Source: Acidobacteriota bacterium
GTDB taxonomy: Bacteria; Acidobacteriota; Aminicenantia; UBA2199
Assembly (NCBI GenBank): GCA_030837085.1
Contig: JAUPLE010000150.1
Span: 3,016 to 67,015, forward strand
Length of the DNA stretch: 64,000 nucleotides
Reading direction: 5' to 3'
The position numbers were made by a program, and so were the translations under genes. This document shows, piece after piece, positions 4,191 through 39,400 of the stretch (position 1 is its first letter; each line of letters begins with the position of its first letter). Under the pieces are notes generated by a model. That model searched no databases. It was not told where the DNA came from and saw nothing but the letters and a program-made list of their open reading frames with translations.

Positions 4191-4196
4191 GTAAAT

Positions 4197-4204: not shown

Positions 4205-4236
4205 TTTGTTTTTTTCGACTCTTCTGATAAAGGTAG

Positions 4237-8419: not shown

Positions 8420-17454
<9,035 letters not shown>

Positions 17455-24600: not shown

Positions 24601-25961
24601 TGATGGATCATGACTCCCTTTGGCAATCCGGTAGTCCCGGAGGTGTAAATTATATAGGCGAGATTATCCGATGAAATAGGGAGCCGGGAATTTTCCGTCG
24701 AATATCCATTAAGGGTATGGCTCAATTGGGTGTCGCCATCCAGGTACAGCACCGTCAGCAAACCCGGAAGACGATCTTTTACTTGATTAACCGTTTCAAT
24801 ATTTTCCGTTTGCGTTATCAATACTTTTGCTTCGCAATCTTCAAGGATGTTTTTAATCCTTTCCCCCGGGTAATCGATATCGAGTCCCAGGTAAGCTCCC
24901 CCGGCTTTAAATGTCCCGAAAATGGATGCCAGCATTTTTATGCATCTTTTCATATATATTGCCACAAATGCATCGGCCGCTATTCCGTTACTACTTAAAA
25001 ACCGGGCAATACGGTTGGCCTCCCCGTTTAACTTCTTGTAGGTAATTTGATTGTTACCATTGAATATGGCGGCAATTCGATCCCCACACCGGTGGACCTG
25101 TTCCTCGAACAACTGGTGATAACATATATCTCGCCTGATATCCTTTTGGGTATTATTGAATTCAAAGAGTATCCGTTTCTTTTCCTCTAGTGAGAGGATC
25201 GTCACTGTCGATATGGTCGAATCAACACTAAAAAGGATTTGCTGCAAAAGAGTTTTCAAATGGATAATAAGTCTTTGAAACCTGGCTTGCTCGTACCGCT
25301 GCGAATTGTATTGAATGGAGCCTATAACGTTATCATCTGTTCTGAAAAATGAAAATACTGTGTTGGTCTGAATATTCCGGGTATATCTTTTATCCTGGAT
25401 ATTTTCCATTATAAGCATCACATCAAATAATGGGAAATCAATACCCGTCTCATCATAGGTTAAATCCAGTTGCTCAATCAATACTTCCATGGGGTAATTC
25501 TGATTTTCAATGGCTTCGGTAATAACCTGCAGCACCTGCAGCAACAGCTCTTTAAACGTCATCCCAGGAGCAATTTGACTTCGTAAGGGAAGAACGGTAT
25601 TGATAAATTCAATATCCACATCCTGTTTATAAATGGGGGAACCTAAAATGATATCGGAGTGTCCGGTATATTTATGGAGCAAAATAACCAATGCCGCCAC
25701 CAGGATCATATGCAACCTGGAATCAGCGCCTTTACTTAATTGCATTAACCGGCTAAATAGCTCACCCTCCAGGCAAAAATCCACACGCGCATCAGCTGCG
25801 GCGTATCCATTTTCGGAGGCATCGCTCTTTACGATAAATCGATCGTAATGAAAGTAACTTTTCACCCATTCTCCAGATAGTTTTTGTAACCAATAATCTC
25901 TCTCTTTGAGTTTTTGATTGGCTGCAATCATCAACCGGTCATTTATTTTTCGTTTCAGCAT
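18660..25961 (-). CDS. Bimodular NRPS: Clobe - A - T - C - A - T - C (2433 aa), ending in a full C domain plus tail ...DYIAFEF
   Basis: N-terminal Clobe (DYWLQKLSGEW, FINTVLPLRS, NQNYPME, FPLFDV). Two paralogous A domains (AYIIYTSGTTGLPKG / VYMIYTSGTTGKPKG; FDISVWQF; AYGP(A/T)EASDD; YKTGDIGYF / YQTGDIGYF). T motifs LGGHSLKA and LGGNSLNA. C domains with MHHIITDGVSQ and MHHIVADGLSQ. Confidence 0.9.
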   Translation of the reverse strand: MLKRKINDRLMIAANQKLKERDYWLQKLSGEWVKSYFHYDRFIVKSDASENGYAAADARVDFCLEGELFSRLMQLSKGADSRLHMILVAALVILLHKYTGHSDIILGSPIYKQDVDIEFINTVLPLRSQIAPGMTFKELLLQVLQVITEAIENQNYPMEVLIEQLDLTYDETGIDFPLFDVMLIMENIQDKRYTRNIQTNTVFSFFRTDDNVIGSIQYNSQRYEQARFQRLIIHLKTLLQQILFSVDSTISTVTILSLEEKKRILFEFNNTQKDIRRDICYHQLFEEQVHRCGDRIAAIFNGNNQITYKKLNGEANRIARFLSSNGIAADAFVAIYMKRCIKMLASIFGTFKAGGAYLGLDIDYPGERIKNILEDCEAKVLITQTENIETVNQVKDRLPGLLTVLYLDGDTQLSHTLNGYSTENSRLPISSDNLAYIIYTSGTTGLPKGVMIHHLGMLNHIYANIAFLGITEEDIIAQTASLSFDISVWQFLTAGILGGAVYIVDRQEVGEPSRLIYSLQKGRVTILEAVPALMAAFLEVIKQEGHKELKYLRWMIPTGEALPVALARQWYRHCPGIKLVNAYGPAEASDDVTLWVIEAADLEDQGTIPIGKPLQNLHIYIMDTNLSLCPTKVPGEICIAGIGVGKGYLKNPTKTAKSFVPNPYAPEIGGHDYEIIYKTGDIGYFREDGNLEFLGRKDYQVKVRGFRIELEEIEHQLLSLDAVKEAVAVAKEDENGEKYLCAYVVFHPSAQLALPNLREHLALNLPYYMIPSYFMILEKIPLTPNGKIDRKALPDPEIKKGDGYIAPRNEIEEKLADIWAEVLDIDKSVIGINSNFFELGGHSLKAILLISKIHKALNIKLPLAEIFDAQTIRELAQIIQKETPVNYISIEPVEKKEYYVLSSSQKRLYVLQQLDLEGTSYNMPILFNLGEGMNEKKMEEICSKLISRHESLRTSFELIHEKPVQKIHPNINIGIEYHEAGGNAKKTVTEIFRDFIRPFDLTLAPLLRLGLIKSEGLQNIAMLDMHHIITDGVSQEVLIREISALYNGEDLSPLKLHYKDYSEWQQSRAVIEALKKKEEYWLKEFQGEIPVLDIPTDFPRPVVQSFEGAMVYFNLDETETIALGKIAAKADTTIFMVLLSLFNITLSNICNQQDIIVGVDVAGRNHADLENIIGMFVNTLALRNFPAAEKVYTGFLQELKERTLQAFENHDYQFEELVEKVAVARDTSRNPIFDVMFSFTDKDTGTGAIGGTTESPLSERLNSTKSMYSYEKKTTKFDLTLTGMKTPKFLFFSFEYCTKLFRKETIKRFVNCFKQVVNSVIRDRDRRIAEIEIITEEEKEKILYIFNNTKKEVVRDKGFPALFEEQVDRAPHKIAAIHNQRHITYSRLNEEANHIAHLLLSKGIRDTFVALYLKRSIAMLASIIGVFKTNGAYIPIEVDYPPDRVIYILENSGSKVVITSEDNHENLNRLQEASSSIQVNQVFYLDYEKSFSTNEHGKLLENPGLIGVADQFVYMIYTSGTTGKPKGVLIHQLGMINHLYAKINDLSVTSGDTIAQTASSCFDISVWQFLTGLLLGATTFIVDKETVLEPWNFFQVLRKGRVSILESVPSLMTAFLETVVQENAGELKHLRWMIPTGEPLTPSLVREWYRHFHCIPLLNAYGPTEASDDVTHYRVPVLFSETQSTIPIGNPLQNLHIYILDRHLALCPVGIRGEICVAGVGIGKGYWQNVEKTQASFIPNPFLDKIKDPDFAVLYQTGDIGYFREDGSIECLGRFDYQVKIRGNRIELEEIERRLIINKNIKDAVVVCKVNGHGDKYLCAYIVLEKNNRGMPEHRELREYLSQTLPDYMIPAYFVPLDAIPVTPNGKIDRKALPEPQIETVEGAYIGPRNKVEESFVEIWTEVLGIEKDMIGIDSNFFQLGGNSLNAMILVSKIYKTLDVKLTLVDLFKTPYIRELAEQVQFMRASKEHKFASIEPVEAKEYYPLSSAQKRFYVLQQLDLENTGFNLPNMAVLKMKPDKKKFEDIFNKLIERHESFRTSFLLVEGEPCQRIHREVEFAIEYHSERPQRHSPETIFGHFLRPFDLSQAPLLRVGLIEMDVDEYILMVDMHHIVADGLSQGVLLKEFWHLVRDVDKELPVLPIQYKDFSEWQNSKKGSDAIKKQEEYWIEVLNRGIPELNLPIDFERPEIQSFAGSLINFALGVEETSQLKKIAQEEGATLFMVILAICNIWLSRICAQETIIIGTGASGRTHPDLEQIIGTFQNMLVLVNEPAGDKTFREFLSEVKKKALEAFDNQDFQFEELVRKVITKRDARRNPLFDFFYIFNDMELQLEGEPDGKTPDLEMSFYPHEVKITRFDLALTGTNIGKNITLSMEYGTSLFKKETIEKIITYFKQIMTNVIGNRDIKLKDIKISHSLFASKDGFALEDYIAFEF

Positions 25962-25994: not shown

Positions 25995-27374
25995 TTAGCC
26001 TAATTCGCGTTCCAATTGATTGTTGACTTTTTCGAAAATTTCGATCGCCTTTTGAACAATTTTGGGAGTTGTTATTAAGGGGGGCAAAAAACGAACCACA
26101 TTGGAGTAGTGCCCACCCAATTCAACCAGCAGGCCATTTTCGAAGCATTTCTTACGCATCTGCTGGGCCATCTCAGGAAACGGTTCTTTACTATTCGGAT
26201 TTTTCACATATTCGATTCCGAAAAACATGCCGATTCCTCTTACCTCACCGATAAATTTCGATTTTTTCTGGATGCATACCAGGCTGCCCAGCATCTCTTT
26301 TCCCAGTTCTTTTACATATTTCTCAATGTGGTGAGATTTTGCGAATCTTATGGCCGATGCAGCGGCTGCAATACTCAACTGGTTTCCCCGGAAGGTCCCG
26401 GCGTGGGTACCTTTCTCCCAGGTATCCAGGTTTTTTTTATAGATCACCATTGCAATAGGCATACCAATACCCCCTAGACCTTTTGAGATTGTAATGATAT
26501 CAGGAACGGCCCTAAAATTTTCAAAAGAGAAAAAGGGACCAGTCCGGTAAAAACCGGATTGAATCTCATCAAAAATCAACGGTATTTCCAAATCATGGCC
26601 TATTTGCACCAGTTCTTCAAGAAAACCTTCTTTGGGAATAATGGTCCCCCCTTCTCCTTGTACCGGTTCAACAATAATGGCCGCCGGTTTTTCAATACCT
26701 GAGCATGGATTTTCCAATGAAATCCGGACATATTGGGCACACTCCACACGGCATGCATCGGGCTGTTTACCAAATGCACAGCGATAACAATAACAATAGG
26801 GCATGAAATGAACCCCAGGTTCTAAAGAAGGGACTTTTTTCCGATGGTGTAAATGGGCGGTGACGCTTAATGCACCACTTGTCATCCCATGATAAGCCCC
26901 CTGGAAGGAGATGATGCTGTGCCTACCGGTATTTATTTTGGCTAATTTTAAAGCGGCCTCAATTGCATCGGTTCCTGCGGGACCACAAAAATTAAACTTT
27001 GAATTTCCCCTTAATTCATCGGGTAATGAGGCATCCAGCTCTTCCATAAAGTCTACTTTATTCCTGGTGGGGAAATCCAACGATTGGATCATTTTTTTTT
27101 GCTGCTTTTCCATATCAGCCATTACATCTTTATTATTGTGCCCCAGGTTCAATACACCGCATCCGGCAAAAAAGTCTATATATTGATTGCCGTCTATGTC
27201 TTCTATAATAGAGCCCAAAGCTCTTTCAAAAGCGACCGGAATACTCTGGGGATAAGAGCGGTTATTTGCTTCCAACTCCCTCTGTTTTTCAAGCAATTTG
27301 AGAGAATTGGGCCCCGGTATATTCTCTGTCACAATAGCTGCTTCTTCAGTTAAATGATAACTTTCAAAACTCAT
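25995..27374 (-). CDS. Class-III (GABA/DABA/GSA-type) PLP-dependent aminotransferase with a Cys-rich insertion
   Basis: Family motifs DFFAGCGVLNLGHN, IISFQGAYHGMT, IVEPVQGEGG, LIFDEIQSGFYRTG, ITISKGLGGIGMP (putative PLP Lys). The insertion PYCYCYRCAFGKQPDACRVECAQY contains 7 Cys. Confidence 0.8.
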   Translation of the reverse strand: MSFESYHLTEEAAIVTENIPGPNSLKLLEKQRELEANNRSYPQSIPVAFERALGSIIEDIDGNQYIDFFAGCGVLNLGHNNKDVMADMEKQQKKMIQSLDFPTRNKVDFMEELDASLPDELRGNSKFNFCGPAGTDAIEAALKLAKINTGRHSIISFQGAYHGMTSGALSVTAHLHHRKKVPSLEPGVHFMPYCYCYRCAFGKQPDACRVECAQYVRISLENPCSGIEKPAAIIVEPVQGEGGTIIPKEGFLEELVQIGHDLEIPLIFDEIQSGFYRTGPFFSFENFRAVPDIITISKGLGGIGMPIAMVIYKKNLDTWEKGTHAGTFRGNQLSIAAAASAIRFAKSHHIEKYVKELGKEMLGSLVCIQKKSKFIGEVRGIGMFFGIEYVKNPNSKEPFPEMAQQMRKKCFENGLLVELGGHYSNVVRFLPPLITTPKIVQKAIEIFEKVNNQLERELG

Positions 27375-27414: not shown

Positions 27415-30400
27415 TTAAAAACCAAAATCTTCGTTATTGCCCAGGAAGACAGGCAATGCCTCTCCCAGACCAGTTGAAACTGTAATGCTTTTCAATAAAA
27501 TATCCTTGTTTTGTGTCACCGTTCGTAATACCTCTTTATAAGAATCGATAAACTTTTCGATTGTTTCTCTTTTAAATAATTTGGTGCAATACATCAATGT
27601 GAAAGAAAAGTCGTTCCCTGATTCCACTACAGCCAACGTAATATCAACCGGAGACGTCCCCACATTGAATTCAGTAGGCACAAACTTCAGCCCCTCGACT
27701 TCCAAAAGGGATAAATTATTCCTTATCATAATGAATTCCACATCATTCAACGGATTCCTGCTCAAATTTTTAATGATACCCAACTTCTCCGCCAGCATTC
27801 CCAGGGGGTATAGATGATTTTTAAAGGCCATAAGTAGATTTTCTTTCACGCTGCTTAAAAAACCGGCAAAAGTTTTTTCTTCTTCTATGAGAGTCCTCAT
27901 GGGTATAACATTCATAAACACCCCGATGACTCTTTCTAATTCCTCCAGGTCCCTGCCAGCAATCGGTGAACCGACGATGATGTCTTTCTGCCCGGTATAA
28001 CGGGATAATAATATATTAAAAGCAGCTAATAATACCATGTACACCGTTGCGCCGGTATCTTCAGCCAATACATGGATGTTTTGGGTCACATGGTTCTCCA
28101 ACTTGAAATGAATCCATTCACCTTCAAAGCTTTGAGATTTGGGACGTGGATAATCGGTAGGCATATTTAACAACGGTATTTCCCCGGAAAATTTCTCCAG
28201 CCAATAAACTTCCTGTTTTTTGCACTCCCTGAACTCCAGGAATCGGTGCTGCCATTGGGCATAATCTTTGTATTGCAATTTTAATCCAGGTAATTGCTTA
28301 CCTCCATATAAAGCGACTAACTCTTCAAATATGATCTCCATGGAGTAACCATCGGTTATAATATGATGCATCCCGAAAAGCATAACATGATTCTCACCAG
28401 ACATTTTTACCAATTTCACCCTCATCAACGGCGGCTGTGTGAGATCAAAGGGGGTTCTGAATTTATTGATGATCGTCTTCATTTCATATTCCGGGTTCCC
28501 AGATTCAATCAGATCAACATATTCAATTTCGAAATCAGCGGTTTCATGGACTTTTATGACGGGTTGACCGGCGATTAAATGGAAGGATGTACGTAAACTT
28601 TCCTGTCTTCGGATTAATGCCCGCCACGCATTTTCAAAACGGGCAATATTTAATTTTCCCGATAAAGGAACATAACGAAATGTATTATAGGTTTCACTAA
28701 TATTTTCGAATTCATTGATAATAAAAAATTTTTTTTGAGCCACAGAAGCGGGATAATATTCTTTTTTTTCCACCGGTTCCAGGGATAAGCGGTCACTCTT
28801 AATTGATTTGTACCCGAACTTTTCCGCCATTTTCCAGGTGACATCTCCGAGGAAATCGGTATGATAATGATCCCTCCAATTATCTGCGACACCAGGATCA
28901 ATATGTTTGTGCCGCATGAATTTTACATCTCCTATCATACGTCCTTCCGAGTGAGTACTATCCGTCATTCGCCGATTTTGCTCTTTATAGGGTTGGATCA
29001 TTCCCGGGTGAAATTCCAGGTTAAGAAAACGGCAAATTCCTTCCATGCAATGATAGGGATCATACACCAGGTCTTCGAACTTTATCCAATGTTGACGGTT
29101 TTGGGGGATATTCTCCAAAAACTCCAGGATGTTCCGATGGGAAATAAACCAGATGGCTTCAGCTATCCGGCGCCTGGAGAGGGATAGATCGTGGGTGCTT
29201 TGATTACTAAAAAGTAAATCCAACCGTGCTTCTTCAAAAGAGTGAATCATCCCGTAAGGATGACGTATGAGATGGATATAGAGTGAGTTTGAAAAATCAC
29301 TTTCAGCCTTTTTCAACACCTCAAGGCTAAATGAATAATCCGGGGTTTTATCCACCAATAACCGATCGCCAATACCTTCTTGCAGCACCCGGTAAAACTG
29401 CTTAGTCGTCATAATCCGCTGCTGGAACTCCCGGATCATACGCCCGGCTTCTTCCACATCACACCCCTTAATTTCCATAAGCGCACGGATGGAAGATTGC
29501 AGGGTAAAGTTCACTTCATTGAGAGTATTATAAGAGAGTAAGCCTAATTCGGGAGGAGCAAATAATTTTGGATGTCCGGCCAGCATGACCCGTAGTAAAG
29601 TCGTACCGGAACGAGGGGGGGAGAGAATAAAAATTGCCGGTGGGTTCGCAGGAGATTGAGTTTCAAAAAGGGAAGGGGGAGATGGCAGCAAGTGCCGGAC
29701 CCTTTCAATGATCTCCATATCGACTCCCGGCTCCCCTCCAGGGGAATCAGGGGATATTGGCCTACCTGTTATTGCCCCTGCTGCTTCCGGATAGTTTTTA
29801 ATAATATAGCCAGCCAATTCAGTAATGGTGGGCGCTTCGAATATTATATTAATATGTACAATCTCATTCAACAACGTATTGTACCTGTTGACAAACTTCA
29901 TACCTTTAAGAGAATCCCCTCCTAATTCAAAAAAATTATCATGGATACCCACACGGTCAATCCCCAGGAGTTCCTGCCAGATTTCAACCAGTTTTTGCTC
30001 TATTTCATTTCCCGGTTCCACGTAACTCACGCTCAATTCAGGGCGCTGATGGCGTGGTTTTGCAGTACTTTGCTCTTCGACAATATCAATATCGGTAGAC
30101 AACATGCCGGAGGCATTGAAACGGTCTGTCATATGTTCTAAATCGATGGTAGATACCACCACACGGGGCATGGGATCAGCTAATATACGGCGAAATACAT
30201 CGATTCCTTCGGGAGGAGTAATACCTTCTTCCATAGCTTTGCCCCACAAATCCTTGTGTTTTTGCTCCGCAATCACTGAAACGCCGACATTTTGCCATCT
30301 ATCCCAGTTGATAGAGATGGCAATTGTACCGCTGTTAAAAAACCTGCTGGCCGCAAAGGCATCAAGAAAAGCGTTGGCAGCCGCATAAGCGGTTTGACCG

Positions 30401-33400
30401 GGTAAAGGAAAAATGGCCGCCATAGAAGAGCAAAAAATAAAGAAATCTAATTCATAATATTGCACCAGACGATGAATAACCAACGTTCCCATGACTTTGG
30501 GGGCTAATATTTCTTCCGACAATTCCCGTGTCCGCCTCATGATCATTGCCCCATCGGCGATACCGGCCGCATGGATGATACCGTTGATGGAACCGAAATG
30601 CTGTTGAGCCTGGGAAATCACCTGCTGCATTTGACTCTCATCCGTCACGTCGGCGCAGGACAGGAGAACTTCTGCGCCCGATGCTTCCAATTCCCGGATT
30701 TTACGAATTTTTTCGCCGGTTTTATCTTCATTGGGATGAGAAGATAACCAATTGTCCCACTCATCGCGCCCAGGCAGGGAGACTCGATCTATCAATACTA
30801 ATTTTGCTTTTACGCTCACTGCCAGGTACTCAGCCAGGATCAAACCCATCCCGCCAAGCCCCCCGGTAACCAGGTAAACACCTTTTTCTCTTAACCCTGC
30901 TGCCGGCAAAGAACCGGATTTCTTCATATTTACTGGTTCAAAGGCCAAAATCCATCGATGGTTGTTACGGTATGCAATGATTATATCTTTATCCTGGTTA
31001 TAATTTTCATGGCCATCCCGGGTTTTAATTTTGAATTCTCGCATCAGTTGACCTACCAGGACCTCTGATTCAGGTAGAGTAATATCTATTAAACAACAAC
31101 CAATGTTGCTGAATTCTTGTGCTATGGCTTTCACCGGTCCCATCAATGTTGCCTTCTCCGGGCATATAAGGTCTCCTCCGATGACATCCTGCGCATTGTT
31201 GGTAACCACTTTTAATTGGAAGTGATGACCGGCGTTCATCTTCCCTAAGGCCTGCGCCAGGGCCAGAAGGCTGTAAAATCCTTTATCAAGATATCTTTCC
31301 ACCTCCCCAAGTCCTAGACACCCGTTACCGGCGACAGAAACACTCCACAGGTGAATGATCGTATGCGGCAATTGTCCGGTTGCCCTTAATTTCCCGAACA
31401 ATGCATCATAATCATGAGTAACGGCCGGTTTAACCGTATACTCATCTTCTTTTAAATTGGTAAAGTCATCCCCCTCCCGCACAATCAATACCCGAAATCC
31501 TTCCTGCCTTAATTGCATTTCAATTTTATTTCCCAACCCGCCTTCATCTATAAAAAGTAATATTGTCCCGACCGGATCGTCCCAGGCAGAGGGTTCAAGG
31601 GGTCCCGGTAACCGGGTTCTCTTCCACGAAGGAATGTACAACCATTGGTCAATATCACTTCTTTTCTGCATCGGGGTTTCGAGGTACTTTTCCATACGGT
31701 TCTTTAAGTGGATATAATCGACATCCAACGGGAAACGCTGATGCTGGAAATTGTAGACAGGCAATGAAACTCGACGTCTTTTTTCATCCACATAAAACTT
31801 TTCCCAATCAATATCAATCCCATAAAGCCATAAATGCCCCAGCCTGTTCAACAGATAATAAATATCCGGCACAGTTTTTTTCTCATGCCGCACCAGGTTG
31901 ACCAACCGCTGTTCGGTTGTATAGTTTTCATGGTTCTTTACCAGGGCACACAAATCCTGCCCGGGACCGATTTCGAGAAATATAGAGTTCGGGGTTTTCA
32001 GCAACTCCCCAATCCCTTCGCCAAACCGGACAGTATCTTTCATATGCTTTACCCAATATTGGGAGTTCGTGGCTTCCTCCGCAGTAATCGTTTGAGCAGT
32101 TACATTTGAAATAAAGGGAATCCCCGGTGGATTTAATGTTGTTTTTCGTACTTCGTTTTCGAATTCCGCTAAAATTGGTTCCATAAGGGTTGAATGTCCT
32201 GCATAGGAAACATTTACTCGGACACTTAAATAACCCTTGTCTTTAAGTTCGTTTTCAAAGGCCTCGATGGCATTCGAGGTCCCGGATACGATGCAAGATG
32301 CCCCATTATCGATCGCGAGGGATAATTCACCATTAAGAAAGGGATTAACCTTTTTCATTGAGAGTGGAACACTCAACATCGCCCCCTTCGGCATTTTTTG
32401 CATCAATTGGCCGCGTAAAATCACCAACTTTAGCGCATCCTCCAGCGAGAAAACCCCTGACAAGCAAGCGGCTGTATATTCGCCAAAACTATAACCGATC
32501 ATTACTTCGGGTTTGATACCCCAACTGAGCAACAGCTTTGCCAGGGCATATTCAAATATAAATACTAACGGTTGGGTGATTTCTGTTTTTTTGACACTTT
32601 TTGCGGCCTGGTCCAGGTTTTCGGAAGGGTACAAAATCTCTTTCAAGTCATAACCTGCAATCGATTGAAACACATTAAAACAAATATCCATTTCCTCACG
32701 GAATATTCTCTCAATTCGATATAATCCCAATCCCATATTTACATACTGCGCCCCCTGGCCGGAAAACATAAAAACAATCCTTTTAACCTGGTTTTGGGAA
32801 TCGCTCGTATAAATTTTCCCCGCCTTGGGAGAAGAAATTATCTCAATCGCGTTCTTATTATCTGAACAAAGCAACATTTTGCGATACTGGAACGATTTTC
32901 TACCCACTTGAAGCGTATAAGCGATATCTGCTAGATCCATGGTTGGATGTCGGTTTAAGTATTCCAAAAAACTCTTTATGGCGCTGTCAAGAGACTCCTG
33001 GGTACGGGCTGAAAGTATTAAGATTTTCCATTCCCTTCCTATGGAAGATTCACCCAACGGAGGTGCTTCTTCAAGTACGGCATGAGCATTGGTTCCGCCG
33101 ATGCCAAAAGAACTGACCCCTGCCCGGCGCGGCGATGATGGATAAATATCATTCTTGCTCCATTCCTTTAACCGGATATTCACATAAAAAGGACTATTTT
33201 CAAAATCAATCCTATTGTTTGGTTTCCGGAAATGAAGACTGGGGGGAATTAAACAGTAGTACAGTGATAAAACCGTTTTAATGAATCCTGCTACACCGGC
33301 AGCAGCATTGAGATGCCCGATATTGGATTTAACCGAACCGATCGCGCAGTAGCCTGTTTTTTGTGTTTGAAAGGCCAGGGTCAGCGCTTTCATTTCAATG

Positions 33401-36400
33401 ACATCACCAAGGGAGGTTGCCGTACCATGGGCTTCTACATAACCGATAGTTTCCGGGTCTATTCCTGCAGCCTGATGTGCAACGGCAATAACCTCGGCCT
33501 GCCCCTCCAGCGCAGGTGCCGTATACCCCACTTTGCGGCTGCCATCATTATTAACGGCAGAACCTTTTACCACCGCATAAATGTGGTCACCATCGGCCAT
33601 TGCCTCTTCCAACCGTTTCAGCACCACAATACCAGCGCCATCACTAAATACGGTTCCACTGGCCTGTTCATCAAAAGTACGGTTGTGACCATCCCGGGAA
33701 AAAAGCATTCCTGCTTCATAAAGGTAACCCGTTTTGTAAGGCAGAGATAAGGAAACACCACCTGCCAGCGCCAGGTCGCATTTAGCCGTTAATAAGCCCT
33801 GGCAAGCCAGATCAATAGCTACCAATGAAGTGGAGCAGGCTGTATACATGTTAAAACTAGGACCTTTTAAATTCAATTTATAGGAAAGCCTCGTAGCCAT
33901 AAAATCCTTATCCAGCAACTGGATATCCATAAATTGTTCCGACGCGCTAATTCTTCCTAACAGGAGCGGTTTCGAGTTCCAGATAGGATTGGGTGATGCC
34001 CCGGCATAGACACCAATCAGCCCACGATATTTGTCCGGATCATACCCGGCATCCTCCAGGGCTTCCCATAAACACAAATGAAATATTCGCGTCTGGGGAT
34101 CCATTTCCCCTGCTTCCTGGGGAGAATAACCGAAAAAGAAAGCGTCAAAGTATTCGATATTTTCCAATACGCCTTTGGCTCTTACATAATCAGTATTTTC
34201 CAGTAATGCCTGATCGATACCGCATGCCGATAATTCTTCTTGTGAAAAGAAAGTAATCGATTCAATACCATTTATTAAATTGTTCCAGAAGTCATCGATA
34301 TTTCCTGCGCCCGGGAATCTCCCGGACATGCCGATAACAGCAATATCCAATCCGCTTCTCCCCGAATTTTCCCCGGTTTCATTTATTAAATATTTTTTAA
34401 TTCTCTCCTGAATGCGATATCTATCATGGCAAAATAAATCCAGGTTCTCTCTTTGCAATTTGGCAAATTTCATATCCGGCTCATTGGTGCTTAAATAGTC
34501 AGTTAAAGCGTTGATCGTCGGGTATCGAAATATGACCGCATCATCGATAGCTTTTCCTATGGCTTCTTGCAATCTACCTTTTATCTGTACTGCCCGGGTA
34601 GAATCACCTCCCACGTCGAAGAAGTTATCAAATTCCCCTACATTATCTTTTCCAAGCACATGTTTCCAGGTCTCCGCAATAATTTTTCGTATCTCAGTTT
34701 TTGTCAATTGTAATTTTGAAAGAGTTATCTCATTTTGTAAACCGGATAATTCACGAATTACCGGATTGTACATCCCGTCTAAATATTCCTTGCGTAATTT
34801 ATATCTCTGTACTTTTCCACTGGTAGTTTTAGGGATTATTTTTACCGGGATTATTTTGTCAATTTCAATACTCATTTTCTCTGCGATATGTTTTTTTAAA
34901 GCCGAGACCAACGGCAAGAAATCCTCCAGATTTCTTTTAAAAACAACAAAACAAATGATTTCATCCGACTGGCTGGCCTCATTATAAACACCACAAACAG
35001 CAATTTTTTCAAAATCCATTCCTTCCAACTTTTCGGCTTCCCTTTCTATATCATGAGGATAAACATTTTGAGCGTTTACAAAGATAATTTCTTTAGCTCT
35101 ACCGGTAATCACCAGGCGACCTTCCCGGGAGAATCCGATATCGCCTGTTTTAAGCCAACCGTCGGGGCGGATAGCCTCGGTAGTCGCTTCATCATTGTTG
35201 TAGTAACCACCGGTGACATTCTCACCCTTTATTTCGATGCCGCCAATGATTCTATCTGCAACTCGCTCACCCGCTTCATCCACGATTCGGACAAAACAAT
35301 CCGGAATTGGGGTGCCTACTTCCACAAAAGATATTGCCTTTACCCCCTTTTCCCTTTCTGTCACCTTTTGGCCAATGGAAAGACTATCCCTGTCAACGTT
35401 CACCACAACCATTTCATCCTCCGGTTCGGAAAATGAAACGGCAAGAGAAGCTTCAGCAAGACCATATACAGGAAAAATTACGGTTTTCTTAAGCCCAAAA
35501 GGAGTAAATTTATTAAGGAATTCCTGGCATACGTCAGCAGAAATCGGTTCTGCGCCATTGACGATCAATCGTAATGAAGATAAATCCAATTGATTATATT
35601 TATCCGGTTCAAAATGTTTCAGTACATATTTATAACCAAAATTCGGCGATACAGTCATGGTACTTTTAGTTTCGGCGATTTTCCGCAACCACAAGTGCGG
35701 ACGCCGAATAAACAGTTGCGGTATCATCAAATAATGATTCCAATCCGCAGTGTAAGGTACCATATGAAATCCAATAATTCCCATATCATGGGTCAACGGC
35801 ATCCAACTAAAAAACACATCCCCTTCTACTGGCGGTTTAATGCCTTTTATTATCGCTTTAATATTGGTCAATAAATTCTTATGTGTCAGCACGACTCCTT
35901 TAGGACTACCCGTGGATCCGGATGAAAATTGAATATAGGCAATATCCGACTCATCCGGGATATAAATATGGCCATGCCCTGCGGTTCTATGCAATTTCTC
36001 GATAAACATGGCGCTTTTTTCCATCTGGGCAATCATATCAGGGTAATTATTGTTTACGGCAAAGGCCTTTAAGGTTTCCAAATGCTTTTCAAAGGTAATT
36101 AAATATGGCCGGCTCAATAAGCGCCAGATGTTGAAGAGTTTGCACATGTACTCATCATTGGCAGCCAATGTAACAGGGATCGGGATTATCTTTCCCAATA
36201 AACAGGCCCAGAAAAATATTACAAAATCCCTGTTATCATTTATTTGAAATACCAATTGATCACCTGGTTTTACTCCGGCGGATTGGAGATTGAAAAGTAT
36301 TGCTCCCGCTTCCAGGTATATTTCATCATACGATAGAAAACGCTTTTCTTCAGCACTATCGATAAATGTAATGCCGATATCTTGCCTTCGCCTACTGCAA

Positions 36401-36429
36401 AACATTTCTACAAGATTTTTATAATTCAT
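27415..36429 (-). CDS. Hybrid initiation megasynthase: FAAL - ACP - KS - AT - KR - ACP - sulfotransferase (ST) - C (3004 aa), Ols/CurM-like with C in place of TE
   Basis: FAAL motifs IAYIQFSSGSTGSPKG, LKTGDIGF, GRAKEIIFVNAQNVYP. ACP FFDVGGDST. KS TACSTSLVAIDLAC, EAHGTATSLGD, NIGHLNAAAG. AT FMFSGQGAQY, GYSFGE, YAGHS. KR YLVTGGLGGMG, SSMAAIFPLPGQTAYAAAN. ACP FFELGGDSLK. ST ILSPPRSGTTLL (5'-PSB loop) and IHLIRHPYGMIHS (3'-PB). C domain YPASVAQKKFF, RQESLRTSF, MHHIITDGYSM. Tail ...GNNEDFGF. Confidence 0.9.
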   Translation of the reverse strand: MNYKNLVEMFCSRRRQDIGITFIDSAEEKRFLSYDEIYLEAGAILFNLQSAGVKPGDQLVFQINDNRDFVIFFWACLLGKIIPIPVTLAANDEYMCKLFNIWRLLSRPYLITFEKHLETLKAFAVNNNYPDMIAQMEKSAMFIEKLHRTAGHGHIYIPDESDIAYIQFSSGSTGSPKGVVLTHKNLLTNIKAIIKGIKPPVEGDVFFSWMPLTHDMGIIGFHMVPYTADWNHYLMIPQLFIRRPHLWLRKIAETKSTMTVSPNFGYKYVLKHFEPDKYNQLDLSSLRLIVNGAEPISADVCQEFLNKFTPFGLKKTVIFPVYGLAEASLAVSFSEPEDEMVVVNVDRDSLSIGQKVTEREKGVKAISFVEVGTPIPDCFVRIVDEAGERVADRIIGGIEIKGENVTGGYYNNDEATTEAIRPDGWLKTGDIGFSREGRLVITGRAKEIIFVNAQNVYPHDIEREAEKLEGMDFEKIAVCGVYNEASQSDEIICFVVFKRNLEDFLPLVSALKKHIAEKMSIEIDKIIPVKIIPKTTSGKVQRYKLRKEYLDGMYNPVIRELSGLQNEITLSKLQLTKTEIRKIIAETWKHVLGKDNVGEFDNFFDVGGDSTRAVQIKGRLQEAIGKAIDDAVIFRYPTINALTDYLSTNEPDMKFAKLQRENLDLFCHDRYRIQERIKKYLINETGENSGRSGLDIAVIGMSGRFPGAGNIDDFWNNLINGIESITFFSQEELSACGIDQALLENTDYVRAKGVLENIEYFDAFFFGYSPQEAGEMDPQTRIFHLCLWEALEDAGYDPDKYRGLIGVYAGASPNPIWNSKPLLLGRISASEQFMDIQLLDKDFMATRLSYKLNLKGPSFNMYTACSTSLVAIDLACQGLLTAKCDLALAGGVSLSLPYKTGYLYEAGMLFSRDGHNRTFDEQASGTVFSDGAGIVVLKRLEEAMADGDHIYAVVKGSAVNNDGSRKVGYTAPALEGQAEVIAVAHQAAGIDPETIGYVEAHGTATSLGDVIEMKALTLAFQTQKTGYCAIGSVKSNIGHLNAAAGVAGFIKTVLSLYYCLIPPSLHFRKPNNRIDFENSPFYVNIRLKEWSKNDIYPSSPRRAGVSSFGIGGTNAHAVLEEAPPLGESSIGREWKILILSARTQESLDSAIKSFLEYLNRHPTMDLADIAYTLQVGRKSFQYRKMLLCSDNKNAIEIISSPKAGKIYTSDSQNQVKRIVFMFSGQGAQYVNMGLGLYRIERIFREEMDICFNVFQSIAGYDLKEILYPSENLDQAAKSVKKTEITQPLVFIFEYALAKLLLSWGIKPEVMIGYSFGEYTAACLSGVFSLEDALKLVILRGQLMQKMPKGAMLSVPLSMKKVNPFLNGELSLAIDNGASCIVSGTSNAIEAFENELKDKGYLSVRVNVSYAGHSTLMEPILAEFENEVRKTTLNPPGIPFISNVTAQTITAEEATNSQYWVKHMKDTVRFGEGIGELLKTPNSIFLEIGPGQDLCALVKNHENYTTEQRLVNLVRHEKKTVPDIYYLLNRLGHLWLYGIDIDWEKFYVDEKRRRVSLPVYNFQHQRFPLDVDYIHLKNRMEKYLETPMQKRSDIDQWLYIPSWKRTRLPGPLEPSAWDDPVGTILLFIDEGGLGNKIEMQLRQEGFRVLIVREGDDFTNLKEDEYTVKPAVTHDYDALFGKLRATGQLPHTIIHLWSVSVAGNGCLGLGEVERYLDKGFYSLLALAQALGKMNAGHHFQLKVVTNNAQDVIGGDLICPEKATLMGPVKAIAQEFSNIGCCLIDITLPESEVLVGQLMREFKIKTRDGHENYNQDKDIIIAYRNNHRWILAFEPVNMKKSGSLPAAGLREKGVYLVTGGLGGMGLILAEYLAVSVKAKLVLIDRVSLPGRDEWDNWLSSHPNEDKTGEKIRKIRELEASGAEVLLSCADVTDESQMQQVISQAQQHFGSINGIIHAAGIADGAMIMRRTRELSEEILAPKVMGTLVIHRLVQYYELDFFIFCSSMAAIFPLPGQTAYAAANAFLDAFAASRFFNSGTIAISINWDRWQNVGVSVIAEQKHKDLWGKAMEEGITPPEGIDVFRRILADPMPRVVVSTIDLEHMTDRFNASGMLSTDIDIVEEQSTAKPRHQRPELSVSYVEPGNEIEQKLVEIWQELLGIDRVGIHDNFFELGGDSLKGMKFVNRYNTLLNEIVHINIIFEAPTITELAGYIIKNYPEAAGAITGRPISPDSPGGEPGVDMEIIERVRHLLPSPPSLFETQSPANPPAIFILSPPRSGTTLLRVMLAGHPKLFAPPELGLLSYNTLNEVNFTLQSSIRALMEIKGCDVEEAGRMIREFQQRIMTTKQFYRVLQEGIGDRLLVDKTPDYSFSLEVLKKAESDFSNSLYIHLIRHPYGMIHSFEEARLDLLFSNQSTHDLSLSRRRIAEAIWFISHRNILEFLENIPQNRQHWIKFEDLVYDPYHCMEGICRFLNLEFHPGMIQPYKEQNRRMTDSTHSEGRMIGDVKFMRHKHIDPGVADNWRDHYHTDFLGDVTWKMAEKFGYKSIKSDRLSLEPVEKKEYYPASVAQKKFFIINEFENISETYNTFRYVPLSGKLNIARFENAWRALIRRQESLRTSFHLIAGQPVIKVHETADFEIEYVDLIESGNPEYEMKTIINKFRTPFDLTQPPLMRVKLVKMSGENHVMLFGMHHIITDGYSMEIIFEELVALYGGKQLPGLKLQYKDYAQWQHRFLEFRECKKQEVYWLEKFSGEIPLLNMPTDYPRPKSQSFEGEWIHFKLENHVTQNIHVLAEDTGATVYMVLLAAFNILLSRYTGQKDIIVGSPIAGRDLEELERVIGVFMNVIPMRTLIEEEKTFAGFLSSVKENLLMAFKNHLYPLGMLAEKLGIIKNLSRNPLNDVEFIMIRNNLSLLEVEGLKFVPTEFNVGTSPVDITLAVVESGNDFSFTLMYCTKLFKRETIEKFIDSYKEVLRTVTQNKDILLKSITVSTGLGEALPVFLGNNEDFGF
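28810..29652 (-). other. PAPS-dependent sulfotransferase (ST) domain, CurM/Ols-type, between ACP2 and the C domain
   Basis: PPRSGTTLL near aa 2271-2279 and RHPYGMIHS near aa 2389-2397 are the sulfotransferase PAPS-binding signatures; the domain is about 280 aa. Confidence 0.75.
34750..36429 (-). other. Fatty acyl-AMP ligase (FAAL) loading domain (about aa 1-560)
   Basis: The adenylate-forming core has no downstream CoA-ligase features and is followed directly by an ACP, as in lipopeptide and olefin-synthase loading modules. Confidence 0.75.
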
Positions 36430-36477: not shown

Positions 36478-39400
36478 TCAAAAACCGAAACCGATTTCGT
36501 CCGCAGGCACCATTCCGGAAGTTGCCACCCCCAGATCACTGGAAATGGAAATATCCTTCAAATAAATGTCATTGTTTTCCATCACAGAAGCAATAATCTC
36601 TTCTAAATAAACAATAAACCTCTTAACCGTTTCCTTTTTAAAGAGGCATTTCCGATAAAATAATATGAGGGCCAACTCATTATTATATTCCATACCCACC
36701 AACCCCAGATCAAATTTCGCCTGTATATTAACATCGATTTGCTTTTGATTAACCAAAAGTTCACTATATCTAGCTTTTTCGTCGCGGGAATAAAAAGTCA
36801 AAAATACATCAAATAACGGATTGCGCATCCCTGTTCTCGTTATTACCAACTTATCCACTAGTTCTTCGAATTGATAGTCCTGGTTAGCAAAGGCATCCAT
36901 CGCCCTCTTTTTTACATTTCCCAGGAACTCCCTAAAGGTTATATTTTCGGAGGGGAAATTCTTCATTACCAAAGTATTTACAAACATACCAACAATTTTT
37001 TCTAAATCCGCATGCCTGCGGCCCATTATCACGGTACCGATGTTTATTTCCTCCTGACCGCTCAGTTTAAACAGCAATACATTAAGCAAAGAAAGAACAA
37101 TCATAAACATTGTAACATTTTCACGTCTTTCCAGCCCCCTTATTTTTCCCAGGTCATTTTTTTCTATCACAGAGATTACGTAGTCTCCCTCAATATTTTG
37201 ATAATTGGACCTCTGGAAATCAGTAGCTAAATTCAGATGAGTCATATCTCCTTTGAACTCCGTTAACCAATATTCTTCTTGCTGTTTAAGAGCATTTCGT
37301 TGTTCCCTGCAATTTTGCCACTCAGCATAATCTTTGTACTGAATCCGCAGTGGAGGTAATTCTTCTCCCCGGCTCAAAGCCATACTATCATCCATTAATA
37401 TATAGTGAGAAATTTCATCAGATATCACATGATGCATGTCCACCATCAATATATTTTCTTTCCTCCCGGTTAAAATAAAGCCCACCCGAAGGAGGGGGGG
37501 GTAGTGCAAATCAAACGAGCGGATGAAAATTTTCATTATATCTTTGATCTTAGCATCAGCCGCTTCTACGGAAGAGATATCAAAATCTTCTATTTCAAAT
37601 TCGATTTTATGGAACTCATGAACCCTCTGTCGTGGCTGATCTTCTATTATTTCCAGGGAGGTTCTCAAGCTTTCATGCCGTTGGATCAGTTTTCTAAAAA
37701 CATCCTCCAATTTTTTCTTTTCCAGGTCTTTTTGAATTTTAAACACCTGGGGTACGTTGTAAGCAGTACTCTTCATGCTCAATTGTTGTAAAAAATACAT
37801 CCGTTTCTGTGCTGACGATAATGAATAATACTCCTTTTTTTCCACGGGATATATCGATAAATATTTATCTTCAGCGGAGTAACTGATATAATGAGCTAAT
37901 GCTTCAACTGTGGGCGTTTTGAAAAAGTCTGCCAGGGGCATTTTCACATGAAACTCCTTATGAATTTTTGCCAACAGTATGGCTGATCTTAACGAGTGAC
38001 CACCTATTTCAAAAAAGTTAGAATGGATGCCTATTAACTCTTTTTCCCTTTCCAGAACGTTAGCGTACATCTCGATCAACTTCTCTTCTATTTTATTTCT
38101 CGGTCCGATATATTGTTTTCGTATCTCCCCGTCAGGGATCGGAAGTGCCTCTTTATCTATTTTCCCATTACGAGTTAAAGGGATGTTATCCAAATGAACA
38201 AAAAAGGAGGGGACCATATAATGCGGCAATTTCCCGGACAAATATTCCCGCAATTCCATACTATCAAATGTTTTTTCTGTCCCCATTACAGGAACAATAT
38301 AAGCACAAAGGTAACAATCTCCATTCTCTGCTGTCCGGGCAACGACAACGGTTTCTTTAATGTTCTTATGTCTTAATAAATGACTTTCTATTTCCCCCAA
38401 TTCGATCCGAAATCCCCTGATCTTAACCTGGTTATCGAGCCTCCCAAGGAATTCGATATTTCCATCAGGAAGCCATCGGACCAAGTCACCGGTGCGGTAA
38501 ACTTTGTCACTGGTCGTAAGCGATTGGTCATTTGTGAATGTGTTGGGAATGAATTTCTCTCCTGTCATGTCCGGGTTGTTTAAATATCCCCTACCGACAC
38601 CTATCCCGGCGATATGTAATTCACCTGGAGCGCCCGGGGGTTGAAGCTTCCCGCCAGAGCAAAGGATATAGGTTCTCATATTCACCAGGGGTTTACCGAT
38701 GGGAATACAATCCCGCTGTTTCATGTCGCCAGAAATTATGGTATAAGAAGTGGTCACATCACAGCACTCGGTGGGACCGTAAACATTAGTGATGGAGGTT
38801 CCCCCGTGGCCAAATCCGGTGAAAAACTGTTTCACCAACTTAGTGGATAAAGCTTCTCCCCCGATAACGAACTCCTTTACCTGGGGTGGAGGTACGTCTT
38901 GTTCCAGGCATTCCGATAATATTCGCATATGGGCAGGCGTTCCATCCACAATATCTACCCTATACCGCCTGTAAAATTCCAATAAACCAAAACCATCCAA
39001 CCGGGTATCCTCAGGGACAATATGCAAAGAATATCCAGACAATAATACCGTAAATACTTGTTTTACCGAAGCGTCAAATTCAAAAGGAGAAACCAAGCAT
39101 ACCTTCAACTCATTATCGCTATAACGATGGTAGATTCTTTCCCGCAAACCATGTACAAGGTTATTTACATTTCGATGTTCGAGCAACACCCCTTTAGGTG
39201 TTCCGGTAGAACCGGAAGTAAAGAAGACGTAAGCTAAATTACTGGGCCGATTGACAGGCAGCGGATTGGGAACCGATTCAGCCGGTAGTACTGCCATGGC
39301 ATCCAGGAGCAGGACTTTCCTTAAGGCCGATTTCGCAACATCAGTACTCCCTGAACATTGTTCAAGGAAGGCAAGTCCGGGAACTTTTTTCAATACCTCT

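What the first reader, a model, noticed from the sequence alone, without database searches (positions are those of the whole stretch)
27415..36429. Ols/CurM-like loading-PKS-sulfotransferase block that ends in a condensation domain instead of the decarboxylating thioesterase
FAAL-ACP-KS-AT-KR-ACP-ST is the exact domain string of olefin synthase and of the CurM terminal module. In those systems the ST sulfonates the beta-hydroxyacyl-ACP, and the TE then hydrolyses, decarboxylates and eliminates sulfate to give a terminal alkene. Here the ST (ILSPPRSGTTLL, IRHPYGMIHS) is followed by a complete C domain (MHHIITDGYSM) and the docking tail ...EDFGF. The beta-sulfated, or merely beta-hydroxylated, fatty acyl chain would therefore be passed into peptide assembly. 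This predicts either an O-sulfated lipopeptide or a sulfate-elimination product (alpha,beta- or beta,gamma-unsaturated acyl chain) formed without a TE. The AT motifs are also atypical. GYSFGE replaces GHSxGE, and YAGHS sits where HAFH/YASH normally lies, so the extender unit may not be simple malonyl.
Basis: partly seen in the sequence, partly recalled or inferred. Interest (0 to 1): 0.8.

Follow-up and report, generated by a model that had tools for sequence, protein, structure and literature searches.

The report
Sulfotransferase-bearing lipid-loading module feeding a peptide synthetase
One intact 3004-residue enzyme from an uncultured Acidobacteriota genome activates a fatty acid, extends it once, probably adds a sulfate to the new hydroxyl and hands the chain to a peptide assembly line instead of releasing an alkene, so the likely product is a sulfated lipopeptide; this is an untested variant of a known enzyme logic.

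Summary
ORF 27415-36429 (minus strand) encodes FAAL-ACP-KS-AT-KR-ACP-ST-C with no thioesterase, and all catalytic motifs are intact. An independent assembly carries the identical protein.

- **ST domain:** it belongs to the CurM/Ols family (E 1e-62). It keeps the PAPS loop, the Glu and the Lys. It has Gly at the CurM "His" position and an 8-residue deletion seen in only one other relative.
- **ST followed by C is recurrent, not unique:** it occurs in at least 24 modules from several phyla. Most of these sit behind Ser-, Thr- or Tyr-type adenylation domains.
- **Precedent for a kept sulfate:** the OciA and DysB loading modules are linked to products that retain sulfate.
- **AT domain:** it is ZmaA-like (GYSFG), which suggests an ACP-tethered extender such as hydroxymalonyl. 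The genes that would make that extender are not in the window.
- **Neighbouring aminotransferase:** it is a diaminobutyrate (Dab) transaminase. The next NRPS starts with two Dab-type modules.

Best reading: a lipid-loading module that delivers a beta-O-sulfated acyl chain onto Dab, with the sulfate retained (about 0.5). Sulfate acting as a leaving group remains possible (about 0.2). This is a new variant of a known kind, of moderate interest.

The parts
34750..36429 (-). FAAL domain (res 1-560), fatty acid activation
   Evidence: Pfam AMP-binding 24-410. NCBIfam fatty acyl-AMP ligase PRK09192, E 9e-111.
34489..34695 (-). ACP1 (res 579-647), GGDST Ser motif at 607-612
33070..34347 (-). KS (res 695-1120) with TACSTS, EAHGT and NIGHL motifs intact
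31936..32775 (-). AT (res 1219-1498), ZmaA-like. GYSFGE at 32479-32496, YAGHS at 32191-32205, uncharged 'RXR' position (YLSV) at 32215-32232.
   Evidence: Best PDB hit is ZmaA-AT 4qbu, E 1.5e-93, against CurL AT at 1e-60. Motif table in PMC4207774. Alignment of 24 ATs.
30292..31569 (-). KR with its structural subdomain (res 1621-2046), YAAAN catalytic Tyr
   Evidence: Pfam Beta-ketacyl_N 1621-1786 and KR 1850-2046
29794..30009 (-). ACP2 (res 2141-2212), GGDSL
28795..29664 (-). ST domain (res 2256-2545), CurM/Ols family. PAPS loop PPRSGTT at 29599-29619. PPELG (Glu kept, His replaced by Gly) at 29542-29556. Shortened segment NTLNEVNFTLQSSIRA at 29482-29529. VDKTP at 29341-29355. IRHPYGMIHS at 29239-29268.
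27484..28764 (-). Complete C domain (res 2556-2982), MHHIITDG at 28348-28371, elongation type
   Evidence: Pfam E 3e-107. Best PDB hit is the TycC PCP-C structure 2jgp, E 1.6e-103; the surfactin starter C scores only 2.6e-26.
27418..27483 (-). C-terminal acidic/aromatic docking tail ending NNEDFGF
   Evidence: The same kind of tail ends proteins X, B, C, D, E and H and ORF I.
25995..27374 (-). Diaminobutyrate-2-oxoglutarate transaminase family gene (supplies Dab)
   Evidence: NCBIfam NF005393 E 1.9e-143; TIGR00709 392 bits against a cutoff of 401.6.
18660..25961 (-). NRPS H: N-terminal half-C lobe, then A-PCP-C-A-PCP-C. Both A codes are DIWEITADDK (Dab-like). Presumed acceptor of the acyl chain.
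36478..42162 (-). NRPS E, directly upstream. It ends in a C domain (HHVISDE) with tail ...EIGFGF and has no obvious acceptor module.
4337..8419 (-). Terminal NRPS K (dock-C-A-PCP-TE). The TE is of the fengycin/surfactin type, not the CurM type.

Best explanation
The gene encodes a lipid-loading (lipoinitiation) megaenzyme of a very large NRPS/PKS operon in an Acidobacteriota MAG.

**Steps read directly from intact domains**
- The FAAL adenylates a fatty acid and loads ACP1.
- The KS extends the chain by one unit that the AT places on ACP2.
- The KR reduces the 3-keto group to a 3-hydroxyl.

**Inferred steps**
- The CurM/Ols-family ST transfers sulfate from PAPS to the hydroxyl of the ACP2-bound chain.
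- The terminal, ordinary elongation-type C domain then condenses this O-sulfated acyl thioester with the amine of Dab. That Dab is loaded on the first module of the next NRPS (H), which the C-terminal ...EDFGF tail recruits through H's N-terminal half-C lobe.
- The sulfate ester stays in the product. The product would be an anionic sulfate next to cationic Dab residues in a lipopeptide, released by a surfactin/fengycin-type TE.

**AT substrate (inferred from motifs only)**
- The ZmaA-like AT (GYSFG, YAGH, uncharged RXR site) probably takes an ACP-tethered, C2-functionalised extender, with hydroxymalonyl-ACP the closest match.
- In that case the acyl unit would be 2,3-dihydroxy, with one hydroxyl sulfated.
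For: - **Domain order and motifs:** intact throughout. An independent assembly carries the identical protein.
- **ST conservation:** 66 of 69 columns that are at least 90% conserved across 152 family members are kept. These include R2273/S2274/G2275/T2277, E2294, K2361, R2389, S2397, R2445 and D2501.
- **ST-C is recurrent:** 24 ST domains directly followed by C were found. Two are KS-AT-KR-ACP-ST-C proteins (P0168, P0258). A Hydrogenedentota MAG has FAAL-KS-AT-KR-ST followed by an ORF that starts with C-A-PCP (L046).
- **Substrates of NRPS-embedded STs:** the adenylation domain in front is mostly Ser-, Thr- or Tyr-type (about 17 of 24 readable codes). This fits O-sulfation of carrier-bound hydroxyls. 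For Tyr, elimination is impossible.
- **C domains after an ST are ordinary:** they do not form a special clade. F's C ranks other post-ST C domains only from position 242 of 770. Its best solved relative is an elongation C.
- **Precedent and field view:** the OciA and DysB ST-containing loading modules match sulfated glyceric acid products. A 2025 paper says ST homologs without a TE probably give sulfated metabolites.
- **Link to Dab:** G is a Dab transaminase and H's two A codes are Dab-like.
- **AT:**
Against: - No biochemistry exists for any ST-C module.
- The ST lacks two residues conserved in 98-99% of the family (an Arg and a Gly) because of an 8-residue deletion. It also has Gly where CurM and Ols have His. 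Its activity or substrate could therefore differ.
- No hydroxymalonyl- or aminomalonyl-ACP genes lie in the window, and the cluster runs off the window end.
- The protein upstream (E) also ends in a C domain with a similar tail and has no acceptor of its own. The way F joins the line is therefore unresolved.
- A surfactin-type TE could need the 3-hydroxyl as the cyclisation nucleophile. That would clash with sulfation if the extender is plain malonyl.
- The Dab and Tyr code assignments rest on my memory of published specificity codes.
Confidence: 0.5

Rival explanations
1. Sulfate acts as a leaving group without a TE. The ST activates the 3-hydroxyl and the sulfate is then lost. Loss could happen on ACP2 (E1cB, giving a 2-enoyl chain, or a 2-oxoacyl chain if a 2-hydroxyl is present) or after amide formation (alkene, or ring closure by a neighbouring N or O). 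The final lipopeptide would carry no sulfate.
For: - The ST is closest to the two 'activating' STs whose sulfate is eliminated.
- No DH domain is present in the module.
- Many NRPS-embedded STs follow Ser/Thr modules, where elimination would give dehydroamino acids.
- The window ST and P0258 share a modified segment and Gly at the His position. This could reflect a changed reaction.
Against: - Established knowledge, from my memory of Gu et al. 2009: in CurM the sulfated acyl-ACP persists until the specialised TE acts.
- No CurM-type TE or other eliminating enzyme is in the window.
- C domains after STs are ordinary and of mixed origin.
- Tyr-type ST modules cannot eliminate.
- A DH domain would be the cheaper way to make an alkene.
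Confidence: 0.22
2. F is an in-line module rather than a starter. The ZmaA-like AT would load aminomalonyl- or hydroxymalonyl-ACP. ACP2 would then carry a 2-amino (or 2-hydroxy)-3-hydroxy fatty acyl unit, a long-chain threonine analogue. The orphan terminal C domain of protein E would acylate its C2 amine or hydroxyl, the ST would sulfate the 3-hydroxyl, and F's C domain would pass the whole chain to H. A related variant has E and F both docking on H and acylating the two amines of Dab.
For: - F sits in the middle of a single co-directional operon with 33-69 bp gaps.
- Every other junction pairs a terminal C plus tail with a half-C N-terminus. E's terminal C has no such partner, and E and F have near-identical tails (IGFGF and DFGF).
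- Both characterised ATs with the GYS motif use ACP-tethered hydroxy- or aminomalonyl units.
- STs in NRPS modules mostly follow Ser/Thr, which are also 2-amino-3-hydroxy acyl units.
Against: - I know of no precedent for a C domain acylating a PKS-built acceptor on an ACP.
- No aminomalonyl- or hydroxymalonyl-ACP genes are in the window.
- L046 shows the same block opening its own ORF, followed by C-A-PCP, which looks like a starter.
Confidence: 0.15
3. The ST is a catalytically dead relic that serves only as a spacer. The module would simply deliver a 3-hydroxy (or 2,3-dihydroxy) fatty acyl chain, as in many lipopeptides, with the hydroxyl free for TE-mediated lactonisation.
For: - An Arg conserved in 98% and a Gly conserved in 99% of the family are lost through the 8-residue deletion, and the His is replaced by Gly.
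- The TE is of the surfactin/fengycin type, and the surfactin TE uses the 3-hydroxyl of the lipid (plus established knowledge).
Against: - All PAPS-binding and core catalytic positions are kept (66 of 69 conserved columns).
- The same deletion plus Gly occurs in an unrelated KS-AT-KR-ACP-ST-C protein (P0258). This argues for a maintained functional subtype rather than decay.
- The His position varies across the whole family: His 36%, Glu 29%, then Gln, Tyr and Asp.
Confidence: 0.1

Closest known systems
Olefin synthase (Ols, Picosynechococcus PCC 7002) and the CurM terminal module of curacin A
   Same: The ST belongs to the same family (4gox E 9e-55, 4gbm E 1e-62). The order FAAL-ACP-KS-AT-KR-ACP-ST matches Ols, and KS-AT-KR-ACP-ST matches CurM. 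The PAPS loop, Glu and Lys are conserved.
   Different: There is no TE, so no hydrolysis, decarboxylation or sulfate elimination, and no terminal alkene. A C domain plus docking tail passes the chain to an NRPS. The AT is ZmaA-like rather than the malonyl (GHS/HAFH) type. The ST has Gly in place of His and an 8-residue deletion.
ZmaA (zwittermicin A) KS-AT-KR-ACP module with a hydroxymalonyl-ACP-specific AT
   Same: ZmaA-AT is the best solved match to this AT (E 1.5e-93, 54% identity). Both have an identical GYSFG active-site motif, a non-HAFH/YASH lid motif and an uncharged 'RXR' site.
   Different: The lid motif is YAGH rather than GAAH, and the RXR site is LSV rather than MCM. No extender-unit genes (ZmaN/D/G/E type) are in the window. 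ZmaA has no FAAL, ST or terminal C.
OciA (cyanopeptolin/oscillapeptin) and DysB (dysinosin) loading modules with an embedded ST
   Same: In both, an ST sits beside a carrier domain and upstream of a C domain in an NRPS starter unit, and the sulfate is retained in the product.
   Different: Those modules build sulfated glyceric acid from an FkbH-type domain. They do not build a fatty acyl chain from a FAAL-primed PKS module. I could not retrieve their sequences, so the relatedness of the STs was not tested here.
FAAL-PKS lipoinitiation of lipopeptides (mycosubtilin/iturin MycA, puwainaphycin)
   Same: A FAAL-ACP-KS block is fused or coupled to a C domain that starts a peptide (established knowledge; PMC4219810 listed).
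   Different: Those systems transaminate the 3-keto group to a beta-amino fatty acid. Here a KR and an ST process it. The adjacent class-III aminotransferase is a Dab transaminase, not a beta-keto-acyl aminotransferase.

Membership tests
CurM/Ols-type 'activating' sulfotransferase domain (Pfam PF13469; PDB 4gbm, 4gox) | Sequence similarity across the whole domain | tested here: met
   phmmer E 1.1e-62 (CurM ST) and 8.8e-55 (Ols ST) over about 280 residues. Pfam Sulfotransfer_3 E 5.8e-27.
CurM/Ols-type 'activating' sulfotransferase domain (Pfam PF13469; PDB 4gbm, 4gox) | PAPS-binding loop (PRSGxT), the RHP...S motif, the conserved Glu of PPEL and the Lys of VDK | tested here: met
   All are present, and 66 of 69 columns at least 90% conserved in 152 family members are kept. 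The catalytic role of the Glu is recalled from McCarthy et al. 2012, which could not be retrieved.
CurM/Ols-type 'activating' sulfotransferase domain (Pfam PF13469; PDB 4gbm, 4gox) | His two residues after the Glu (PPEL-H) | tested here: not met
   The residue is Gly here. None of 24 STs followed by C have His, and the family as a whole varies at this position (His 55 of 152, Glu 44, then Gln, Tyr, Asp).
CurM/Ols-type 'activating' sulfotransferase domain (Pfam PF13469; PDB 4gbm, 4gox) | Full-length segment after PPEL with the conserved Arg and EG | tested here: not met
   The segment is 31 residues instead of 39-40. An Arg (98% conserved) and a Gly (99% conserved) are missing. Only P0258 shares this.
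Olefin synthase / CurM off-loading system | A TE directly after the ST that hydrolyses, decarboxylates and eliminates sulfate | tested here: not met
   A C domain follows the ST. The only TE in the window is fengycin/surfactin-like and sits at the end of protein K.
Olefin synthase / CurM off-loading system | FAAL-ACP-KS-AT-KR-ACP upstream of the ST | tested here: met
ACP-dependent (hydroxymalonyl/aminomalonyl/methoxymalonyl) acyltransferases, ZmaA-AT type | Tyr replaces His in GHSxG, a non-canonical YASH motif, and an uncharged or hydrophobic RXR site | tested here: met
   GYSFGE, YAGH and (Y)LSV, compared with ZmaA GYSFG, GAAH and (L)MCM.
ACP-dependent (hydroxymalonyl/aminomalonyl/methoxymalonyl) acyltransferases, ZmaA-AT type | Extender-unit biosynthesis genes (FkbH/ZmaN-type, a discrete ACP, two dehydrogenases) in the cluster | tested here: inconclusive
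   None occur among the window ORFs. The cluster continues beyond position 64000, and attempts to extend it failed.
NRPS/PKS modules with an in-line ST and a retained sulfate (OciA, DysB) | ST between a carrier domain and a C domain | tested here: met
   The order is ACP2-ST-C. The same junction occurs in 24 other modules.
NRPS/PKS modules with an in-line ST and a retained sulfate (OciA, DysB) | Sulfated final product | not testable with these tools
   This needs mass spectrometry of the metabolite or an in vitro assay.
Lipoinitiation 'starter' C domains | C domain of the starter subtype | tested here: not met
   The best solved match is the TycC elongation C (E 1.6e-103). The surfactin starter C scores 2.6e-26. 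F's C resembles generic elongation C domains.

The most novel reading that the evidence does not exclude
The ST may work as an in-line activating group with no thioesterase. Sulfation of the ACP- or peptide-bound 3-hydroxyl would be followed by loss of sulfate, giving an unsaturated acyl unit, a 2-oxo acyl unit (from a 2,3-diol) or a ring-closed acyl unit. By extension, the many Ser/Thr-PCP-ST-C modules would make dehydroamino acids by sulfation-elimination. That would be an NRPS counterpart of the phosphorylation or glutamylation routes used for lanthipeptides. A second novel element not excluded by the evidence is that two chains (the peptide from E and the lipid from F) converge on the two amines of one Dab.
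Probability: 0.2. Interest if true: 0.85.

Novelty: new variant of a known kind. Interest (0 to 1): 0.55.

Why it matters
Only the ST-TE alkene-forming pair has been studied biochemically, as far as I know and could find. This protein, with the roughly two dozen ST-C modules found here in Acidobacteriota, Chloroflexota, Bacteroidota, Burkholderiales and Hydrogenedentota, shows that CurM-type STs are a portable tailoring domain placed in the middle of assembly lines.

Testing one of them would settle whether they install permanent sulfate esters or act as in-line leaving-group activators. Permanent esters would point to a largely unexplored class of sulfated lipopeptides and peptides.

The host cluster comes from an uncultured, probably anaerobic lineage and carries several other unusual features. 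That makes it a good target for heterologous expression.

Tried and rejected
1. **Iturin/mycosubtilin-like beta-amino fatty acid route through the neighbouring aminotransferase.** Rejected. G is a diaminobutyrate-2-oxoglutarate transaminase family protein, and the next NRPS has two Dab-like A domains.
2. **The missing His shows a dead ST.** Rejected. The position varies across the family and is never His in ST-C modules.
3. **A specialised C-domain clade is coupled to the ST.** Rejected. Post-ST C domains are scattered among 770 C domains.
4. **F's C is a starter-type C.** Rejected.
5. **A hidden CurM-type TE exists.** Rejected. The only TE is fengycin/surfactin-like.
6. **Retrieving McCarthy et al. 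2012 for residue roles.** The paper is not held. A search for a secondary source gave nothing useful.
7. **Extending the locus upstream to look for extender-unit genes.** Protein A is not on record, and the contigs for B and for the HAD gene do not reach upstream.
8. **The representative-library search.** It was dominated by giant multi-C NRPSs, and only 12 of the top 150 hits contained an ST.
9. **A literature check of the Dab specificity code.** It found nothing.
10. **The myxoglucamide paper.** It has no ST and is not relevant.
Full report
**Observation.** All large ORFs in the window lie on the minus strand. ORF 27415-36429 translates to a 3004-residue protein. Pfam and NCBIfam give the order FAAL, ACP, KS, AT, KR (with its structural subdomain), ACP, Sulfotransfer_3 and a full-length Condensation domain (profile positions 2-444 of 456), with no thioesterase. 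A local phmmer map agrees. The identical protein, with the same flanking genes, is present in an independent Logan assembly, so the ST-C fusion is real.

**The ST domain.**
- It is an unambiguous relative of the two solved activating sulfotransferases, CurM ST (E 1.1e-62) and Ols ST (E 8.8e-55).
- I aligned 152 family members gathered. The window ST keeps 66 of the 69 columns that are at least 90% conserved. These include the PAPS loop (R2273, S2274, G2275, T2277), the Glu of PPEL (E2294), the Lys of VDK (K2361), R2389/H2390/P2391 and S2397.
- First difference: the residue after PPEL is Gly, whereas CurM and Ols have His. This position varies across the family (His 55 of 152, Glu 44, then Gln, Tyr, Asp) and is never His in the 24 STs that are followed by a C domain. 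It therefore cannot decide activity.
- Second difference: an 8-residue deletion just downstream removes an Arg and a Gly conserved in 98-99% of the family. Only one other sequence shares the deletion and the Gly: P0258, an unrelated KS-AT-KR-ACP-ST-C protein.
- I could not retrieve the CurM ST structure paper. The functional meaning of that segment stays open. My recollection that it lies in the mobile active-site flap is unverified.

**How unusual is ST followed by C?** It is not unique.
- Metagenomic fragments show ST-C junctions.
- Among the best 150 hits of the exhaustive representative search, 12 giant synthetases contain STs. Two have KS-AT-KR-ACP-ST-C (P0168, P0258) and the rest have C-A-PCP-ST-C.
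- The genome scan found full ST-C matches in Acidobacteriota, Thermoanaerobaculia, Anaerolineae, Caldilineales, Bacteroidota, *Sphaerotilus* and *Delftia* sp. PS-11. It also found a Hydrogenedentota MAG with FAAL-KS-AT-KR-ST ending one ORF and C-A-PCP starting the next (L046).
- In the NRPS-embedded cases, the adenylation domain in front of the ST mostly has a Ser-, Thr- or Tyr-type specificity code, about 17 of 24 readable codes. The code assignments are from my memory of published codes. The extraction was validated on the GrsA reference, which returned DAWTIAAICK.
- The C domains behind STs do not form a clade. With F's C as query, other post-ST C domains rank from position 242 of 770 downwards. 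F's C is closest to an ordinary elongation C (TycC, E 1.6e-103) and far from the surfactin starter C (2.6e-26).

**Literature.**
- The Planktothrix cyanopeptolin synthetase OciA and the dysinosin synthetase DysB each carry an ST in the loading module. Both are matched to products with a retained sulfated glyceric acid.
- A 2025 study of olefin synthases states that ST homologs lacking a TE probably give sulfated metabolites rather than olefins.
- I found no paper in the held library describing a FAAL-PKS-ST-C module or any biochemical test of an ST-C junction.

**The AT domain.**
- The best solved match is ZmaA-AT (E 1.5e-93, 54% identity), well above CurL AT at 1.3e-60.
- ZmaA-AT is specific for hydroxymalonyl-ACP. 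It has GYSFG in place of GHSxG, GAAH in place of YASH, and hydrophobic residues at the RXR carrier-recognition site. ZmaF, specific for aminomalonyl-ACP, has GYSLG.
- The window AT has GYSFGE, YAGH and an uncharged LSV at the RXR site. P0168, whose ST is the nearest neighbour of the window ST in a neighbour-joining tree, also has a GYSFGE AT.
- Two cautions apply. Overall identity to ZmaA-AT is matched by several GHS/HAFH ATs in the same sample, so only the motifs are diagnostic. No extender-unit genes are in the window. The cluster continues beyond position 64000, where another NRPS ends with a C domain and the tail EIEFDF. I could not extend the sequence.

**Context.**
- The operon reads X (cut by the window edge), A, B, C, D, E, F, G, H, I, J, K.
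- Proteins X, B, C, D, E, F and H end in a full C domain plus a short acidic/aromatic tail. Proteins A, C, D, E, H and J begin with only the C-terminal lobe of a C domain (YWLxxLSG...).
- F has no such lobe. As a result, E's terminal C (HHVISDE) has no obvious acceptor, and E and F carry near-identical tails (IGFGF and DFGF).
- The gene after F is a diaminobutyrate-2-oxoglutarate transaminase family member (E 1.9e-143). This removes the iturin-like beta-amino fatty acid idea.
- H begins with two modules whose code, DIWEITADDK, is Dab-like.
- K ends in a fengycin/surfactin-type TE (E 1e-37 and 4e-34). CurM TE is not among its matches.
- A HAD hydrolase just outside the window start is 100% identical to a protein of an NCBI Acidobacteriota MAG. 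Its next named relatives are Aminicenantes.

**Mechanism.**
- Shown by intact domains: fatty acid activation, one KS extension, ketoreduction, and transfer by a C domain to a downstream NRPS.
- Inferred: the ST sulfates the new hydroxyl using PAPS, the acceptor is Dab on H, the sulfate is retained, and the extender is ACP-tethered and C2-functionalised.
- I favour retention (about 0.5) for five reasons: the OciA and DysB precedents; Tyr-type ST modules cannot eliminate; post-ST C domains are ordinary and of mixed origin; no eliminating enzyme is in the window; and a DH domain would be the economical way to an alkene.
- Sulfate as a leaving group stays a live alternative (about 0.2).
- An in-line or convergent topology that uses E's orphan C domain is possible (about 0.15).
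- A dead ST is the least likely (about 0.1), because the core motifs are kept and the unusual deletion recurs in P0258.

**Verdict.** The protein is a member of the CurM/Ols ST family but not of the olefin-synthase off-loading system. I file it as a new variant of a known kind: an assembly-line ST without a TE, here fused to a FAAL-primed, ZmaA-like PKS module. Interest is moderate, and it would be high if the sulfate proves to be an in-line leaving group.

Noticed in passing
window 42232-47943 (-) and 36478-42162 (-); also 47966-55630 (-): Two NRPS modules have a B12-binding/radical-SAM domain of about 550 residues inserted inside the adenylation domain, after about A-domain residue 105 (Pfam Radical_SAM 450-616, B12-binding about 790-907). 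A third module has a B12-binding region ahead of its A domain. No paper in the held library links interrupted adenylation domains with radical SAM. Standalone B12-rSAM methylation of a nonribosomal peptide was reported for discodermin DscE.
   Followed up: partly
window 47966-55630 (-), protein residues 1488-1714: A ThiF (E1-like adenylyltransferase) domain (Pfam E 6e-47) is inserted between the core and the C-terminal part of an A domain. That A domain's code, DLTKRAHIC, looks Asp/Asn-like.
   Followed up: no
window: C-termini of ORFs ending at 63506, 55645, 47966, 42232, 36478, 27415 and 18660; N-termini of ORFs starting at 63477, 55630, 47943, 42162, 25961 and 17454: The subunit junctions are unusual. 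The upstream protein ends with a complete C domain plus an acidic/aromatic tail (EIEFDF, MELEF, VNFNF, AEFDY, EIGFGF, NEDFGF, IAFEF). The downstream protein starts with only the C-terminal lobe of a C domain (YWLxxLSG). P0168 from the representative library shows the same N-terminus and the tail DDQDDWGI.
   Followed up: partly
window 17488-18429 (-): A 313-aa ORF has no Pfam family and only weak similarity to the N-terminal B12-binding part of rSAM methyltransferases (TIGR03975, E 7e-6). It ends with the same kind of docking tail (EDDGAWEF), which suggests a trans-acting partner recruited to the NRPS.
   Followed up: partly
window 55645-60759 (-): This PKS module is KS-KR-ACP-C with no AT; only about 130 residues separate the KS-AT linker from the KR structural subdomain. 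The only AT in the window is the ZmaA-like AT of the target protein, which may serve this module in trans.
   Followed up: no
window 36478-42162 (-), C domain residues 1443-1871; window 8416-17454 (-), second C domain: Two C domains have HHxxxDE instead of HHxxxDG. One of them is the terminal C of protein E, which lacks an obvious acceptor module.
   Followed up: no
loci L003, P0225 and P0263 (genome and representative hits): Three A-PCP-ST-C modules have Dab-like codes (DIWEITADDK, DIWEMTADDK, DIWELTADDK) rather than a hydroxy-amino-acid code. This hints at N-sulfation, or at an ST acting on the upstream part of the chain.
   Followed up: no
just outside the window start (locus L082 7062-7877); window 695-4265: A HAD hydrolase next to the window is 100% identical to NCBI 'MAG: Acidobacteriota bacterium QG657_959', with Aminicenantes relatives at 62%. 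The cluster is flanked by an ADOP/MacB-type duplicated permease and an LVIVD-repeat lipoprotein.
   Followed up: partly
proteins P0019 and many of P0013-P0120: Stand-alone ACP-ST proteins of about 430 aa, with His at the CurM His position, are common in cyanobacteria (for example Anabaena sp. PCC 7108). Their function is unknown to me.
   Followed up: no
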